DNA of 64,000 nt from contig CDPCPM010000029.1 in the NCBI GenBank assembly GCA_976551045.1, forward strand, positions 682,001-746,000, in the 5' to 3' direction. Source of the DNA: Glaucostegus cemiculus (taxonomy: Eukaryota). Position 1 is the first letter of the stretch; the number at the start of each line of letters is the position of its first letter. Shown here one piece after another: positions 19,101 to 61,639 of the stretch. The notes beneath the pieces were generated by a model. The model did not search any database. It worked only from the letters and a program-made list of their open reading frames with translations, and was not told where the DNA came from. Position numbers and translations under genes: made by a program.

Positions 19101-19881
19101 GTATGAACATTTTACCAATAAAGAAGCAATATAACCCAAGAGTCACAATGTGAATAAGAATAAGGATTAAAGTATGAACAGTTTGAAGATCACAGATGGT
19201 TTACCCATTTGCAGAAGTGATGAAATTTTAGTCTTAACTTGCAGGGTAACATCAGCTGAATATCAATATGTGTAACTGCCCACCAAAAGGGCTGTTTTCA
19301 ATTTTTATTTTTGGTATAATATGCTTGTTTGAATATATCGGTGTTGCTTATACTTGCTGTAAATCAGAACAAGAACTGGTTCAGAAATTCCTAGGGACAA
19401 ATAACTTGAATCTACACAGTCAGTAGGCACTCAAAAATGGATTGATCAGTATATGCAAAATTATTGTTGAAAAGATAATAAGGTTTTCAATTTTTTTGTT
19501 AATCTAAAAAGACTATCTTTGAACAAGACTAAACCAACTGTAACTCATTGAAGTATATGTGAAGTCTAAAACTAATGAATTGATGGCATTCATTCAATTT
19601 ACCAGTTACATTTCTTCTACATTTTCATGCAAACTTAGAAGTTTTTGGGTTTTTTTTAATGTTTTTTGTTTAAAATGCTTTTTAAAAACATGTTTTGGAA
19701 GTTGATTAATATTATATGGGACATGACTTAACACTTTAAGTTGAAACATTCTTTACAATATTGTTTATTGTCAGGCATTTATATTGGGTTAACTAGCATT
19801 AAATTGGTTATAGGCATATATTTATAATAAGGTATTTTAATTTATTTGTCATGATTATTTTGCAATGGTCTACGTTTATAG

Positions 19882-26134: not shown

Positions 26135-26429
26135 GTGAGTGTTTGCTTTGTTTTGCTAACAAGTTATGATTATTTTCTATACAATGAAATGTGTGCTTCA
26201 ATCAAACTTCTAATTAAAGTAACTTTATTGACAATAATTAATAATGTTTGATCGAAGCACACATTTAATTCCACAGTAGTCCTCCGCCAAACTAACATGT
26301 CCAGTTTCGTTTACATTCTACATGCTTAGAGTTTTCTTCTTGTGTGGTGTATGTTTTTCCATTGATGAAGGCAGAGAAGGGGATTGAATTTTCCAGTTAT
26401 CAAGATGATTAATTTCCTATTAAAATTAA

Positions 26430-26535
26430 AATACTGCAGTTGCAGGAAACCTGAAATAAAAACAGAGATTGCTGGAAGTGCTCAGCAGATCAGACGGAAT
26501 CTGTTGGAAGAGAACCAGAGTTAAAGTTTCAAATC
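26430..26535 (-). mobile_element. Penelope pLTR fragment
   Basis: aaatactgcag..gcaggaaacctgaaataaaacagag..tgctggaagtgctcagcagatcag...agagttaaagtttca; same family as the 6681 arms. Confidence 0.7.
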
Positions 26536-26540
26536 AATAA

Positions 26541-26770
26541 CCGCTGTCTGTAAGGTTTTTGTACATTCTCCCTGTGTCTGCGTTGGTTTCCTCTGGGTGC
26601 TCCAGTTTCCTCCCACATTCCAAAGATGTACGGGTTAGTAAGTTGTGGGCATACTATGTTGGTGCCGGAAGCACGGTGACACTGTGGACTGCTCCCAGAA
26701 TACTCTACGCAAAAGATGAATTTCACTGTGTGTTTTGATGTACATGTGACTAATAAAGATATCTTATATC
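26541..26770 (+). mobile_element. V-SINE family B, 5'-truncated
   Basis: V-domain plus family B tail GTACATGTGACTAATAAAGATATCTTATATC. Confidence 0.88.
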
Positions 26771-27832
26771 TCCTTTGAACTTTTCCCTTCTCACCTTAAA
26801 TGCATGCCCTCTAGTATTAGACATATTGATCCTGGGAGAAAGATAGTGACTATCTACTCTATCTATGCCTCTCAACTTTATAAACTTCTATCAGGTCTCC
26901 CCTCAGCCTTCACTGCTTTAGAGGAAACAAACATAGTTTGTCCAACCTCTCCTTATATCACATACCCTCTAATCCAGGCAGCATCCTGGTAAACCTCTCC
27001 TGCACCCTCTCCAAAACCTCCACATCCTTCCTATGATAGCACAACCAGAACTGAATGCAGTACTCTGAATGTGGCCTAACCAGAGTTTCATAAAGCTGCA
27101 ACATAACTTCCTGACTCTTGAACTCAATGCTTTGACCAATAAAGGCACACATTCCATACACCTTCTTTACCTCCTATTGACTTATGCCACCATTTTCAGG
27201 GAGCAATAGACTTGGATCCCAAGATCCTTCTGTACATCATCACTGTTAAGGATCCTGCCATTAACCATGTATTTTTCCTTTACATTTAATCTCCCAAAGC
27301 GAAACACCTCACACTTGCCTGAATTAAACTTCATCTGCCATTTCTCCACTCACATCTGCATCTGATCTATATTTCACTATATCCTTTGGCAATCTTCTAC
27401 GCTATCCACAATGCCACCACTCTTTGTGTCATCTGCAAACTTACTAACACACCCATCCATGTTTAAGTCCAAGTCACATATATATCACAAACAGCAGAGG
27501 TCCCAGTAAGGGTCCCTGCAGAACTAGTCACAACCTCCAACTAAAATAAGACACATCCACCACTACCCTCTGTTTTCTATGGGCAAGCCAATTGTGAATC
27601 CAAATGGCTAGATCACCATGGATCCCATGCATCTTAATCTTCTGGATGTGCCTGCCAAAAGGGACCTTGTCGAATGCCTTACTAAAATCCATGTAGACAA
27701 CATCCACTCCTCTACCTTGATTGATCACCCTCATCACTGCCTTGAAAAACTCAATTAGTAATTAGGCCGTGCTTTTCCAAATACTCATAAATCCTATCCC
27801 TAAGAATCCTTTCCGATAGCTTTCCTACCACT
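26771..27832 (-). mobile_element. CR1 LINE fragment
   Basis: Minus frames VDVVYMDFSKAFDKVP, WIHNWLAHRKQRVVV, LYETLVRPHSEYCIQFW, LERVQERFTRMLPGL. Confidence 0.9.
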
Positions 27833-28214
27833 TTTTCTTTCACATTTTTCCTTGCATCTCATCCACCAAATTTCACCAACCACAATTAATACAGGAGAGG
27901 GAAAATATATATTCTAGGTTTGTAGATTGTAAATCAACTCATGGAGATTATATGAACATCAGCTCATGGAGATGATAGGAGCGTTATGGCCTAATATTCT
28001 ACCTGTGTCTGACTTCTACAATTGCCTCCATGGTCCATTGGCATCAGTCATTATAGGAACTCTTTAAGCAGAAATTTGTATGTATTTAGAAAAAGTACTA
28101 TTTAAAATAGTAAAATTTATTCTTGATTTTTCAACATGTTACTAAACATGCTTAGTTGATCTTGGTATCGATAGATTATTACTAAGAATTTAGCTTGGCT
28201 CTGCTCATTGACAG

Positions 28215-46362: not shown

Positions 46363-46566
46363 TCTGCCACAAATGGTGAGGAACAGGACAAAGATTACTT
46401 CAGGCTTGAGCACCTGCAAGAAGAATTTAACTTTGTTTCAGAAGAAGATTTGAACAAATCCAAGAGATTTCGACTGCTACAGCTCCGAAATGAAAGAGTG
46501 ACAGAGTTCCTGAATTATAAACAAATTCCCATTCAGGATTCTGAGATTTCTGAGAAGATTTTCCAG
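46363..46566 (+). CDS. CC2D2A: CC2D2A window-exon 14 (204 nt)
   Basis: ttgtag|TCT GCC ACA...TTC CAG|gtaaga; [42 protein letters not shown]...EKIFQ. Confidence 0.95.
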
Positions 46567-47070
46567 GTAAGATTTGTAGCATTTCATAGGTTTACTGGTG
46601 CCCTAAGCTGTGACCTTGCAAAGCACTACCTCCAGAAAATACGGTAAAAGCCAGATCAACTCCAGTTATTCAGCACGTATGATTGATGAGCCACAACCAT
46701 GAAGTAATGTCTCCAGCCTAACAGATAGTAAAGTACATTACCTGGATGTTACCAAAAATACAGCAAAAGAACAAATGACTCCATATTAATATCTCCTCAT
46801 TGGATTGAGCATATTTTATTCAGCAGCTTGGTGTTATTAGTGCTTTGGCACACCAGTGTTCAGTTTTGATTGCTGACATGCAGGGTTTCTATCCTCAGTC
46901 AGGCACTTGGGGTCATTAAAGATACTCCTATTTATAGAACAAGATATTGAACGGAGGAGTAAGATGACAAATAATAAGAAACAATTTGTTAATTTAAAAA
47001 AACATTTGCAAATTAACCTCACTTTATGCATGCAGTGCTGCATTTTGTTTTGTTTTTACCCCTTCTTTAG

Positions 47071-53050: not shown

Positions 53051-53167
53051 TATTTATAGATTACATAGAACTTGCAAAAGCATGCATGTGTGTAGGAAGT
53101 GCATTGAGTAACAAAGGAGCTGATCCAAAACTGAGGAAAAACACTTGATAAATATTTGTCCTTTTAG

Positions 53168-53259
53168 GTGCGGGACTCTGTAACAAGTAGATTTCTGCTG
53201 GCAAAGCATCATTATACCTTGTCAAATATGGTTATTGAGGAAGCAGTCCCCAGCATAAG
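53168..53259 (+). CDS. CC2D2A: CC2D2A window-exon 16 (92 nt)
   Basis: ttttag|GTG CGG GAC...ATA AG|gtaaat; VRDSVTSRFLLAKHHYTLSNMVIEEAVPSI; phase 0 to 2. Confidence 0.94.
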
Positions 53260-55289
53260 GTAAATATAATGAGATATTCTGAGTATAACCTGCATTTTAT
53301 CTGTTTTGGATGAGATTAAATATTTTCTTGATATTGAATGTCTGGAGGCGTTGTTCAGCTTCTCATCATTTCCTCATGATATAGTTTAAGAAAGCAACCA
53401 TTGCACATCAAAAGGCAGGAGAACTAATCAAGGCAATGTTTGTCTTGGACCTTAGAATTCTCCTTCAATTGACAATCATATGAATCATTTTTGTTGTATT
53501 GTATGACCTTTAAGTTGGAGCACAAATAGAAATCCTTGCCTCAGGAAATGCTTTGACAACTGCTTAAGCCGCTCCCTCAGTTTTACTGGTCAAAATCTGT
53601 AAATTCCTCTGATATTCACAGACATTAAAAAATATATTAAAAAATCTAATGCACTGGAAAACACATTAGTTATCAATAAATTTAAATTACCTCAAATAAA
53701 GAGTAAATTTCAATTTTACTTGTTCCTCTCCTTCACTTTCATAGAACAGGCCTTCAGACTACAATGCCTGCGCCAAGCATGATGCCAAATTAAACAAATC
53801 TATTCTGCCTGCACGTGATCATCTTTTTTTAAAAGAATGTGCTTGTTAGATTTGCATCAGGTCTAACTTAGTGCAGGCTCAAAGGGCGGAATTATCGGCT
53901 TAATTGCTGGGAAGTCTCAGGAAGTCCATGCTCTTCCAAATAGCTGATTGGCAGTTTGCAGTCCTGTAAGTAGCAATGGGTAGTGCAGAAGTTCAGGATG
54001 GCTACCTGCTTGGGTAGTTCAGAATTTGCACACAGTTACACAGATTAAGGAAGCATTTTCATGCAGCACTGTTGATTCTTTGATGAAACATTCGGGCCAA
54101 TGTGCTTGGCTGTCTTTGCAAATATAGAGCATCAAATGGACAAGGATTCTCTGTTAGAAGAATTAATGAATTTTCAGAGGAGCAAGGACCTGACAGCACT
54201 TTATTTCAAAATTCACATTGAATAAATTGACATATCACAGTATATTTCACTTACTGACAGTTGAATGCTATATATTGCAAGGATGCAGTGAACATTGCTT
54301 GTATTCCTTATTGTTTTATTAATTTTTTTATCCATTTATTTTCAGGATTATCAGTTTTAGTAAAATGAGCACCTGGTGTTCTGTATACTGCATGTAATGA
54401 ATAGAAAGTTTTACATTTCAAATTATAAGAATATTTCAATTTTTTTTTAAATTTTCTCTGAGTATATGTTCACTCCTTCTATAAAAATTGACCTTGCAAA
54501 GGCCATTCTGACTGAGAAAAACAACTGTAATTGGATTCTGGTGTCGTGAACTGTTATTGTATTATTTGTTTTACTATGTGGGGCATATGGCCTAGTAATT
54601 ATAAATTACTGTGATTTGCAGTGGTAATTTTATCAGCTGTGTATACAATTATTATAATTTGATAATTCAGTCAATTATTAATTATCTTATAATGTATAGT
54701 TTAGTCATCTTCTTGGGAACAAAGTGTGGGATGATAGCCCTTTTGCCAAAAAATATCCAGTGAATAATAATGAAGAGTAATGACTATAATAGCCTGTTGG
54801 TGTCCTGTGTCATACATCTGTTTATAATCTAAACAATGATTGTACCCATTGGAAAAGCAATATTTATAGGATGTAGAAATGAAGTCCAGAATATTGTAAG
54901 GGGGCTTGATGCTGATCCACCATATGCTTATATTCCAGTAATCTTAATTTGTATTAAATATTTTATTTGGATCTAAAGACTCAGTACATTACCAGATATT
55001 GTGTATGTCATATTTCTGGCCCAAAGACATTATAAAGATTTGTTTTTCTGGGATAAGTTTTTACAACTTGATATTGAGAAAAATGTCTAAGTAAAATCTC
55101 AAAATGTAACACAAAACACATTCTTTCCAATCTTATATTTTTATCTTAAACCCAGTTCAAACTTCTGATACTTGCCTCTTATTGTAATAACTATCTTTTG
55201 TACTAAGTATTGTGTCTTTCTCTGCTTTAGTTTTGGTTCCTTTTCATATATCTTGGTGTCTCTCTTTATTTCTTGCATTTTCTGTACAG

Positions 55290-55304
55290 TTCTGGTGAAT
55301 CACG
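55290..55304 (+). CDS. CC2D2A: Candidate alternative 15-nt microexon of CC2D2A (adds SGESR)
   Basis: Long pyrimidine tract with TGC, then tgtacag|TTCTGGTGAATCACG|gtatgt; frame-preserving in the phase-2 intron between window-exons 16 and 17; no transcript evidence. Confidence 0.5.
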
Positions 55305-55550
55305 GTATGTTACGTTATTCTCATCATTTCCTTTCCATGTTATCACTTTAGATGATTTATATTAACTGTTAATAATTATTTTAACATTAAAACCATATTT
55401 TATACAATTGGTATTAATTTTGAAATCAATATTTTTGTTTGATCTTATCTGACTTTTTTTAAGTCTTGGCAAAGTTAAAACTAACCAGAAGTTTAAAAAA
55501 ATTGGTGAGTACATGAAAATATATTTTAAGATATACTTTCTTGCTTATAG

Positions 55551-55718
55551 TGTGTTAGGTGTCAATCTGTTCAAACTGGCTGAACCAAGGAGGCCACTTA
55601 GACCACGAAGAAAAGAAAGGAAGAAGGTCACTGCCCAGAACCTTTCTGATGGCGATATTAAACTTCTGGTGAACATTATCAGAGCCTATGACATACCAAT
55701 ACGTAAATCCATAGGAAG
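55551..55718 (+). CDS. CC2D2A: CC2D2A window-exon 17 (168 nt, start of C2 domain)
   Basis: ttatag|T GTG TTA...GGA AG|gtagga; [52 protein letters not shown]; phase 2 to 2. Confidence 0.96.
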
Positions 55719-56074
55719 GTAGGAGATTCCAAAGAGAGATTTTTCCAATCGTCTTTGTAATGTTATATCTTGTTTCAACAATTCTTCATGCCAATATTTA
55801 TCAGTGGACAAATTATCATTATTTTGCACAGTAAAAACTTCACTGAAGCAAATCATTGGAAATTTGAACTTTTTATATGTAACTAACAAAATATTGTGAC
55901 ATTTTTCTCATGGGAGCTATTAACAATATTTTAATCAATCTTATAAAGTTTACCTATATTAATCATTATAATTTTTATTTATCATTTCATCAATTTGAAT
56001 TAATTTTCTTTGAAAAAATTATGTGTTTCTAGATCTATTTAAAAAGAAATAACAAATAAGTAAGAGTCATTTAG

Positions 56075-56225
56075 TTGTAAAGTATAGAAGGCCCTTCAGT
56101 CCACCATGTCTATGTCAACTGTTGTGTCTATCTATTCTAATCCCATTTGCCTGCATTAATTCCATATCCCTCTGTGCCTTCCTCATTCAAGTACCTGTCC
56201 AGATGCCTCTTGAATGTTTGTATTG
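56075..56225 (-). mobile_element. CR1 3'-end fragment abutting the exon 18 acceptor
   Basis: gaaggcccttcagtccaccatgtc...tcccatttgcctgcatta.ttccatatccctct...aagtacctgtccagatgcctcttgaatg. Confidence 0.75.
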
Positions 56226-56246
56226 TTTTTGTTACTTTTCCTTCAG

Positions 56247-56352
56247 CAAACCAGCACTAAGTTCCAGATCGGCTAGATCTATTAACGAAACGTTTTCAAC
56301 CTCTCAGCCACCCCAGACATCCTCTCAAAGCCATGAGTGGTTTACTGACCAG
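56247..56352 (+). CDS. CC2D2A: CC2D2A window-exon 18 (106 nt, Ser-rich C2 insert)
   Basis: cttcag|C AAA CCA...GAC CAG|gtatga; KPALSSRSARSINETFSTSQPPQTSSQSHEWFTDQ; phase 2 to 0. Confidence 0.9.
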
Positions 56353-57134
56353 GTATGAAACAACCAAGAAACACAAAAGCATATGGAACCTGTTTGTGCC
56401 CAGAGAATAAATACAGGTCCTCCCCAGCTGTTTTATGTACAACCTGTATATACGAACAAGCATTTGAGAGACCTACAGGATGGATTTGCCAGCTGCTGGG
56501 GGGTCTGCGGACATATTCTGCCATGTGGGAACTCAGTTCACAGCCACATTTCTGACTCAACCTGTTCAGAAAGAACTGAACCCTGCCATAACCTGGGGAG
56601 GACTTGTAAGTCATTTTCTCAGTCCCGTCATCTTATAAGTGACAAGTCAAACTAAGGATTCTTCTGCTCTCTCCACTGAACTTAATGGTTAAGTTTATCT
56701 TGAAGAGCAGCAGAGAAATTATCACTGGCATCTTAATCAATATTTATCCAATAATCTACATCACGATGATTGTGAAAACTAAATTAAACATCATGTTTTA
56801 CTGACATGTATCCAAATCAATTCACTCTATGTTACATCGAGAAGTACCAGACACTGTGCGCGGTAGAGAATTATCTGTTCCTTTAGCCAGGCTTTTCTAT
56901 TACAGTGACAATACTTGAACCTAACTGACAATATGGAATATTTTCAATGTAAATCCTGTTTCCATAAAACAGGATAAATTTGACTAAAATAAGTCATATC
57001 AGCCTTCTTCCAACCTTCAGAAAATGCCATCAATTGACATCTGCTCATCAAGGTTCAGTGTACTAAACACTCAATATTCTATGCTCTAAGAGAATGGATA
57101 CAGCAAACAAGTAAGGAGACAAACAGTATGTTAT

Positions 57135-61036: not shown

Positions 61037-61639
61037 GTAAGGATTTTATTCTGCATGAATATTTACCTGCAGTGAATGGTAGTTGTAAAATCCTGAGAAG
61101 CAAATCTTTGGGAGAAATACGTGTTGTTACTTGATGTATCTGAAAGCTATTCTATGCAGTTTGTGTAGTACAGTTTCAGGACAGATCTGAGGTAATCATA
61201 TATTGCAAATTCCATACTGATTTTGTGGTAGCCACAGTCATACAGCGTACAACCTTTAGAAATTATAGCTTATAACAATGCAAATCATACAATTACATGC
61301 ATTCAATTTTATAATCCAGTAATAACTTGTGACTGTCTTTGTGCATTTCTTAATAGGGCCTCCCACATCTCCAATCCCTTTTGTTCTTAGCTGTTTCATT
61401 GATATTTACTCACTCCTACCATAAAAGATGTTTTATTTTTCAGCAAAACAAATCAATGGACAAGAATTCAATTTTCCCAGACTTGGTTACGTACATAAGG
61501 CTTAGCAGTTAGCTAATTTGGAAATTTCTCCTGAAGAGATTTTGCAGAAATCTGGATCGAAATCCTTTTTACATCATTTACTCTCTGCCTCCTTGATTTT
61601 TCTTCTTGTCCTCATTGTCTATGTCCTGAGATGTCCAGG

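What the first reader, a model, noticed from the sequence alone, without database searches (positions are those of the whole stretch)
55230..55312. Candidate 15-nt frame-preserving CC2D2A microexon with an SRRM3/4-type signature
Seen in sequence: ...tctctttatttctTGCattttctgtacag|TTCTGGTGAATCACG|gtatgt. The tract upstream is pyrimidine-rich and has no AG for about 57 nt. A TGC lies at 55274-55276, 14-16 nt upstream of the exon. The acceptor is CAG and the donor ACG|GTATGT is good. The unit sits in unique sequence 246 nt upstream of exon 17. In this phase-2 intron it would change ...VPSI-S-VLGV to ...VPSI-S-SGESR-VLGV with no stop, just N-terminal to the basic stretch and C2 domain. Established knowledge: neural and photoreceptor microexons (3-27 nt) activated by SRRM3/SRRM4 carry a UGC close upstream of the 3' splice site, and ciliary genes including mouse Cc2d2a have photoreceptor-specific exons. 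I cannot say whether this is the same exon. Inference: a tissue-specific isoform of a transition-zone protein in a chondrichthyan, which automated annotation would probably miss.
Basis: partly seen in the sequence, partly recalled or inferred. Interest (0 to 1): 0.72.

Follow-up and report, generated by a model that had tools for sequence, protein, structure and literature searches.

The report
Known retina microexon of ray CC2D2A
This 15-base piece of a ray's cilium gene CC2D2A matches a tiny exon already catalogued as retina-enriched in human, mouse and zebrafish and already present in gene models of other sharks and rays, so it is very likely real but ordinary; it is predicted to add a five-residue flexible spacer to the protein, likely in photoreceptors.

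Summary
Real, but already known. All coordinates check out. The unit lies between 92- and 168-nt exons; the mouse 15-nt Cc2d2a retina microexon has flanks of exactly these sizes, and published human and zebrafish RT-PCR primers sit in the same two exons. It is thus the orthologue of HsaEX0012807/MmuEX0009425/DreEX0019276 (human retina PSI 95 vs 0.6), not of the knocked-out mouse 'exon 32' (21 nt). Of 210 parseable CC2D2A proteins, 27 carry exactly +5 residues here, 183 none; the same peptide is in RefSeq models of two rays and a shark, so annotation does not generally miss it. SRRM4 induces the human exon in cell lines, but the zebrafish orthologue is not consistently reduced in srrm3 mutants, so SRRM3/4 control is only partly supported. 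Length, not sequence, is conserved: likely a Gly/Ser spacer before the C2 domain. No RNA of this species was seen. Side result: the sister 21-nt microexon, 3.7 kb beyond the window, has GG instead of its acceptor AG. The scan's earlier notes hold no report of this exon.

The parts
53168..53259 (+). Upstream constitutive CC2D2A exon, 92 nt, ends in phase 2
   Evidence: tblastn and junction fit; same size as the mouse upstream exon 43715753-43715845
55231..55287 (+). 57-nt AG-free, pyrimidine-rich tract (75-80% C/T)
55274..55276 (+). TGC (UGC) at -16 to -14, candidate SRRM3/4 eMIC site
   Evidence: sequence; function inferred from Ciampi 2022 and Bonnal 2025
55287..55289 (+). CAG acceptor
   Evidence: matrix score 8.1, constitutive range -0.5 to 14.2
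55290..55304 (+). 15-nt microexon, adds SGESR; orthologue of HsaEX0012807 / MmuEX0009425 / DreEX0019276
55305..55310 (+). Donor GTATGT after ACG
   Evidence: matrix score 8.1, constitutive range 5.0 to 12.1
55349..55351 (+). Single TAG at +45, the only Musashi-type core motif in the downstream intron apart from the acceptor
   Evidence: function untested
55551..55718 (+). Downstream constitutive exon, 168 nt, basic stretch and first strand of the central C2 domain
   Evidence: same size as the mouse downstream exon 43718552-43718720

Best explanation
The 15 bases at 55290-55304 are this ray's copy of a microexon of CC2D2A conserved across jawed vertebrates, likely skipped in most tissues and included mainly in photoreceptors, likely with help from SRRM3/SRRM4 acting at the upstream UGC, and predicted to insert a five-residue flexible spacer just before the basic stretch and central C2 domain. 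Steps. Shown: splice signals, open frame, position, and alternative +5/0 protein forms in relatives. Taken from papers on orthologues: retina-enriched inclusion in human, mouse and zebrafish; SRRM4 is enough to raise inclusion in human cells. Inferred: the same tissue pattern and regulators in this animal. The exon is too short for efficient recognition by default; in photoreceptors high eMIC activity (SRRM3 and SRRM4 able to stand in for each other), with low levels of repressors on the TC-rich tract, would commit the 3' splice site early. Inferred from conserved length but free sequence: the peptide works as a Gly/Ser spacer, not as a binding motif, loosening the link between the helical segment and the C2 domain of this transition-zone protein; the effect is likely subtle.
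For: Flank sizes 92 and 168 nt equal those of the mouse 15-nt exon. Human and zebrafish validation primers encode peptides of the two flanking exons. Dataset S1 of PMC9303857: 15-nt CC2D2A exons with retina vs other PSI 95.4/0.59 (human), 90.75/1.11 (mouse), 41.5/0.63 (chicken; orthology inferred), 38.0/0.88 (zebrafish). Human exon dPSI on SRRM4 expression 13.7-52.7 in 7 of 7 experiments. 27 of 210 parseable proteins carry +5 and none another length: SGESR (Rhinoraja, Hemitrygon, Stegostoma), SGDSR (two Chiloscyllium, Scyliorhinus canicula), SHGSG (Callorhinchus), GPGAG (Alosa), SSGSG (Pyxicephalus), SEGPG/SEGAG (birds); 19 of 229 proteins had no parseable junction. G000 has two loci over the SRRM_C (PF15230) cut-off. 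AlphaFold2 model of a Hemitrygon fragment puts the insert (residues 121-125) in a coil with pLDDT under 50 (113-128) between a helix (78-102) and C2 strand 1 (161-171); no Pfam domain covers it.
Against: No RNA evidence from this species. Zebrafish orthologue DreEX0019276 is not consistently reduced in srrm3-mutant eyes (+7.1 at 5 dpf), unlike the sister exon (-55.1). SRRM3 gave dPSI 0 in HEK293. In mouse, WT vs Aipl1-/- retina dPSI 0.376 had FDR 0.16. UGC is neither rare (27% of candidates) nor strictly needed. The segment around the insert keeps a nearly fixed length in distant homologues (24 residues in 45 of 75 rows), which fits a constrained motif better than a free loop, and the model is unreliable there. 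RefSeq XP_ models are predictions whose read support I could not see.
Confidence: 0.68

Rival explanations
1. Real retina-enriched microexon, but in vivo it is driven mainly by something other than SRRM3/4 (Musashi acting downstream, release from PTBP-type repression, or another factor); the UGC is secondary.
For: No consistent loss in zebrafish srrm3 mutants, where srrm4 is reported low and not up-regulated; classed 'AS', not 'MIC_Neural', in PMC12626424; 12 TCTT/TCTCT motifs in the 250 nt upstream.
Against: SRRM4 raises the human exon in 7 of 7 experiments and MSI1 gives 0 in 2 of 2; only one TAG lies downstream here; the mutant values are noisy (-28.7 at 60 hpf).
Confidence: 0.2
2. Real microexon, but in elasmobranchs it is broadly neural or used in other sensory or ciliated cells rather than photoreceptor-specific.
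For: Orthologues show 7-14% inclusion in neural samples; the tissues behind the shark and ray models are unknown to me.
Against: All four bony vertebrates in Dataset S1 show strong retina bias; 14 of 21 cartilaginous-fish species fetched lack a model with it, as expected of a narrow pattern (isoform lists incomplete).
Confidence: 0.08
3. A relic or chance look-alike that is no longer spliced in this species.
For: The sister 21-nt exon here has lost its AG, so decay of CC2D2A microexons can happen in this lineage; one intronic candidate and one antisense candidate score as well on splice sites alone.
Against: All signals intact and the peptide is identical to that of three other elasmobranchs, at the same junction.
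Confidence: 0.04

Closest known systems
CC2D2A 15-nt retina microexon: HsaEX0012807, MmuEX0009425, DreEX0019276, probably GgaEX0021252 (Ciampi 2022, PMC9303857; Murphy 2016 table, PMC4991804)
   Same: Same gene, same intron (92/168-nt flanks, primer positions), same length, frame-preserving.
   Different: Species; peptide sequence differs between lineages (SGESR here, SEGPG birds, GPGAG shad); inclusion not measured here. Human and mouse peptide sequences were not retrieved.
RefSeq isoforms XP_078257188.1 (Rhinoraja longicauda), XP_072921083.1 (Hemitrygon akajei), XP_059502664.1 (Stegostoma tigrinum)
   Same: Identical five-residue insert at the identical junction, with skipping isoforms in the same species.
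   Different: Other species; predicted models with no tissue information.
Mouse Cc2d2a 'exon 32' (21 nt; MmuEX0009427, HsaEX0012804, DreEX0019277; Murphy 2016, Matalkah 2022)
   Same: Same gene, retina-enriched, frame-preserving, flanks the same C2 domain (on its C-terminal side).
   Different: Different intron (177/204-nt flanks), Musashi- and srrm3-dependent, deleted in mice without a detected phenotype; its copy in this genome has GG in place of the acceptor AG.

Membership tests
Orthologues of the CC2D2A 15-nt microexon (HsaEX0012807 group) | Same host gene | tested here: met
   29 junctions fitted to a Hemitrygon CC2D2A protein; 1451 codons without a stop
Orthologues of the CC2D2A 15-nt microexon (HsaEX0012807 group) | Same intron | tested here: met
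   92/168-nt flanks as in mouse; human and zebrafish primers in the flanking exons
Orthologues of the CC2D2A 15-nt microexon (HsaEX0012807 group) | Same length and frame, intact AG/GT | tested here: met
   +5 in 27 of 27 insert-bearing proteins
Retina-enriched microexons (RetMICs) | Length 3-27 nt | tested here: met
   15 nt; definition in PMC9303857
Retina-enriched microexons (RetMICs) | Inclusion biased to retina in this species | not testable with these tools
   No reads of this species could be laid; orthologues meet it
SRRM3/4 (eMIC)-dependent microexons | UGC between branch point and AG, long pyrimidine tract | tested here: met
   TGC at -16, 57-nt AG-free tract; present in about three quarters of targets and not strictly required
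SRRM3/4 (eMIC)-dependent microexons | Regulator genes present | tested here: met
   Two SRRM_C matches over the cut-off in G000; not assigned to SRRM3 or SRRM4
SRRM3/4 (eMIC)-dependent microexons | Inclusion rises with SRRM3/4 and falls without it | tested here: inconclusive
   Published orthologue data only: rises with SRRM4 in human cells, not with SRRM3 in HEK293, no consistent fall in zebrafish srrm3 mutants
Musashi-dependent photoreceptor exons | UAG enrichment in the proximal downstream intron and response to MSI1 | tested here: not met
   One TAG at +45 in 246 nt besides the acceptor; human orthologue dPSI 0 with MSI1 in 2 of 2 lines; in vivo need not excluded
Orthologues of mouse Cc2d2a exon 32 | 21 nt (15 in teleosts) between 177- and 204-nt exons | tested here: not met
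   That intron is 63743-68071 in window-extended numbering; its exon lies at L002:5707-5727

The most novel reading that the evidence does not exclude
This ray is a natural experiment on the two photoreceptor microexons that bracket the central C2 domain of CC2D2A: it keeps the 15-nt spacer exon, which is length-conserved from chimaera to mammals, escapes srrm3 dependence in zebrafish and has no knockout that I found, while the well-studied 21-nt exon has lost its acceptor AG and is either dead or respliced 9 nt downstream as a 12-nt in-frame exon. The 15-nt exon would then be the one under selection and could explain why deleting the 21-nt exon left mice unaffected.
Probability: 0.15. Interest if true: 0.5.

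Novelty: already known. Interest (0 to 1): 0.22.

Why it matters
[quoted passage not shown] The useful points are secondary: the exon conserves length rather than sequence, the mouse knockout removed the other CC2D2A microexon, and this genome carries an acceptor change in that other exon.

Tried and rejected
RNA evidence: the look-up of sequencing runs on 53100-56400 listed no RNA holder; this blank is no evidence either way, and no reads were laid. Identity with mouse exon 32: rejected by length and flank sizes. RNA structure around the exon: none beyond shuffles (z -0.52). Solved structure of CC2D2A: none found by sequence. Top-scoring rival candidate 61180-61191 (12 nt, TGC, but AG-free zone 4 nt): no insertion there in 67 cartilaginous-fish proteins. 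First search for the sister exon demanded AG and missed it; a peptide-similarity scan found it. Supplements of PMC13281805 hold no cc2d2a rows. PMC11450717 and PMC12626420 gave nothing on this exon. Literature searches listed no paper on a CC2D2A microexon in cartilaginous fish and no deletion of the 15-nt exon; the library lacks most subscription papers, Supplementary Fig. 6 of PMC9509328 is a picture I could not read, and the orthologue table of the Bonnal preprint (which includes elephant shark) was not seen. Human and mouse peptide sequences were not among the 120 of 675 hits listed. Earlier scan notes: none holds both words.

Full report
Observation. Every stated detail is in the sequence: CAG acceptor ending at 55289, 15 nt at 55290-55304, donor ACG|GTATGT, TGC at 55274-55276, 57 AG-free bases, 75-80% pyrimidine, 246 nt to the next exon. 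The flanking exons are 92 nt (53168-53259) and 168 nt (55551-55718); the intron is phase 2 and inclusion adds SGESR without a stop. The host gene is CC2D2A: 29 junctions were fitted across the window and two neighbouring stretches of G000, giving 1451 codons without a stop; the closest of 67 aligned cartilaginous-fish proteins are Mobula and Hemitrygon at 91-92%, so the animal is a ray in the broad sense.

Chance. In 67,913 intron bases there are 1805 frame-keeping AG-GT candidates of 3-27 nt. The finding ranks second on a splice-site matrix trained on 28 of the gene's junctions. Two of 1805 pass a combined filter; the second has a poor donor. One of 1386 antisense candidates passes, and one antisense candidate has a higher site score. 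The filter was chosen after seeing the finding and TGC alone occurs in 480 of 1805, so the signature is suggestive, not proof.

Orthology settles it. (a) Proteins: a search with the downstream exon found 675 relatives, 120 listed; two cluster look-ups added isoforms. Of 229 proteins, 19 had no parseable junction, 183 lack an insert and 27 carry exactly five extra residues; no other length occurs. The same SGESR is in Rhinoraja longicauda, Hemitrygon akajei and Stegostoma tigrinum, SGDSR in two Chiloscyllium species and Scyliorhinus canicula, SHGSG in Callorhinchus milii, and Gly/Ser-rich five-mers in shad, a frog and birds. That is 7 of the 21 cartilaginous-fish species seen, with incomplete isoform lists. 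Skipping isoforms exist in the same species. (b) Mouse: an rMATS row in the supplement of PMC4991804 gives a 15-nt Cc2d2a exon at chr5:43716936-43716951 with 92- and 168-nt flanks. (c) The human and zebrafish validation primers of PMC9303857 encode peptides of the two flanking exons, and both reverse primers match best inside 55551-55718. (d) PMC12626424 pairs DreEX0019277 with the human 21-nt exon on the + strand, which leaves the upstream DreEX0019276 as the orthologue of this exon (inference). Dataset S1 of PMC9303857 lists these 15-nt exons as retina-enriched: PSI 95.4 vs 0.59 in human, 90.75 vs 1.11 in mouse, 38.0 vs 0.88 in zebrafish, and 41.5 vs 0.63 for a 15-nt chicken exon whose orthology I infer. 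The mouse exon tested by RT-PCR and deleted by the Stoilov group is the other one, 21 nt between 177- and 204-nt exons; its deletion gave no detected phenotype.

Mechanism. Shown here: signals, frame, two SRRM_C loci in the genome. From papers: the eMIC domain of SRRM4 binds UGC near the 3' splice site; UGC is found in about three quarters of targets and is helpful, not essential; neural microexons have a lengthened branch-point-to-AG region; retina microexons are proposed to be low-sensitivity SRRM3 targets. For this exon the data are mixed: SRRM4 raised the human exon by 13.7-52.7 PSI in 7 of 7 experiments, SRRM3 and MSI1 by 0 in HEK293, and the zebrafish orthologue moved by -0.3, -28.7, +19.9 and +7.1 in srrm3-mutant eyes while the sister exon fell by 55. 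I commit to eMIC-assisted inclusion with SRRM3/SRRM4 redundancy (about 0.68 for the whole account), with another main activator as the chief rival (0.2). On the protein, the insert keeps its length but not its sequence, and is Gly/Ser-rich, which points to a spacer (inference). An AlphaFold2 model of a 434-residue Hemitrygon fragment (75-row alignment, mean pLDDT 78.9) puts it in a low-confidence coil between a long helix and the basic stretch that leads into the C2 sandwich, and puts the 21-nt exon in a helix just after the last strand. Against a free loop, the spacing here is 24 residues in 45 of 75 rows of that alignment, so five added residues may shift a constrained motif. No solved structure was found.

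Side result. The sister 21-nt exon lies 3.7 kb past the window (L002:5707-5727). It encodes MSEMLKK, close to the MTEMLKK of Hemitrygon, with a good donor, a TGC at -13 and several downstream TAGs, but its acceptor reads GG. G000 gave one match. The next AG, 9 nt on, would give an in-frame 12-nt exon with a poor acceptor score. Models of other rays and sharks include the exon. A recent loss, a polymorphism, a shifted acceptor or an assembly error cannot be told apart here; PMC9509328 notes that this exon is absent from several species.

Verdict. A correct sequence-only call of a known exon. Novelty: already known; interest 0.22.

Papers seen. PMC9303857: main-text passages and supplement rows, no figures. 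PMC9509328: passages and supplement rows; one PDF unreadable. PMC4991804: passages and supplement rows. PMC12626424: search listing and supplement rows only. 10.1101/2024.09.17.613571: abstract, section 10, passages; supplements not seen. PMC12871342: abstract and section 20. PMC10987577, PMC11450717, PMC13175383, PMC12626420: passages. PMC13281805: supplement search, no hit. The names of PTBP, NOVA and RBFOX motifs scanned are recalled.

Noticed in passing
L002:5707-5727 (G000:C29:749707-749727, 3.7 kb past the window end): Second CC2D2A retina microexon (21 nt, orthologue of mouse exon 32). Exon, donor, TGC at -13 and pyrimidine tract are intact, but the acceptor reads GG, not AG; the next AG would give an in-frame 12-nt exon.
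   Followed up: partly
window 61180-61191: 12-nt frame-keeping AG-GT candidate with the best splice-site score and a TGC, but an AG-free zone of only 4 nt and no matching insertion in 67 relatives' proteins; probably chance.
   Followed up: yes
L011 (G000:C42:1417095-1417238) and L012 (G000:C50:7388237-7388383): Two SRRM_C (PF15230) matches over the cut-off, presumably SRRM3 and SRRM4; not assigned.
   Followed up: partly
window introns 19101-19881 and 26135-28214: Narcine bancroftii models alone carry 35- and 6-residue insertions at these two junctions; not looked for in this genome.
   Followed up: no
window 46363-46644: The donor fitted at 46575 (TTT|gtagca) looks doubtful and was left out of matrix training; the true border may be a few bases off or non-GT.
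   Followed up: no
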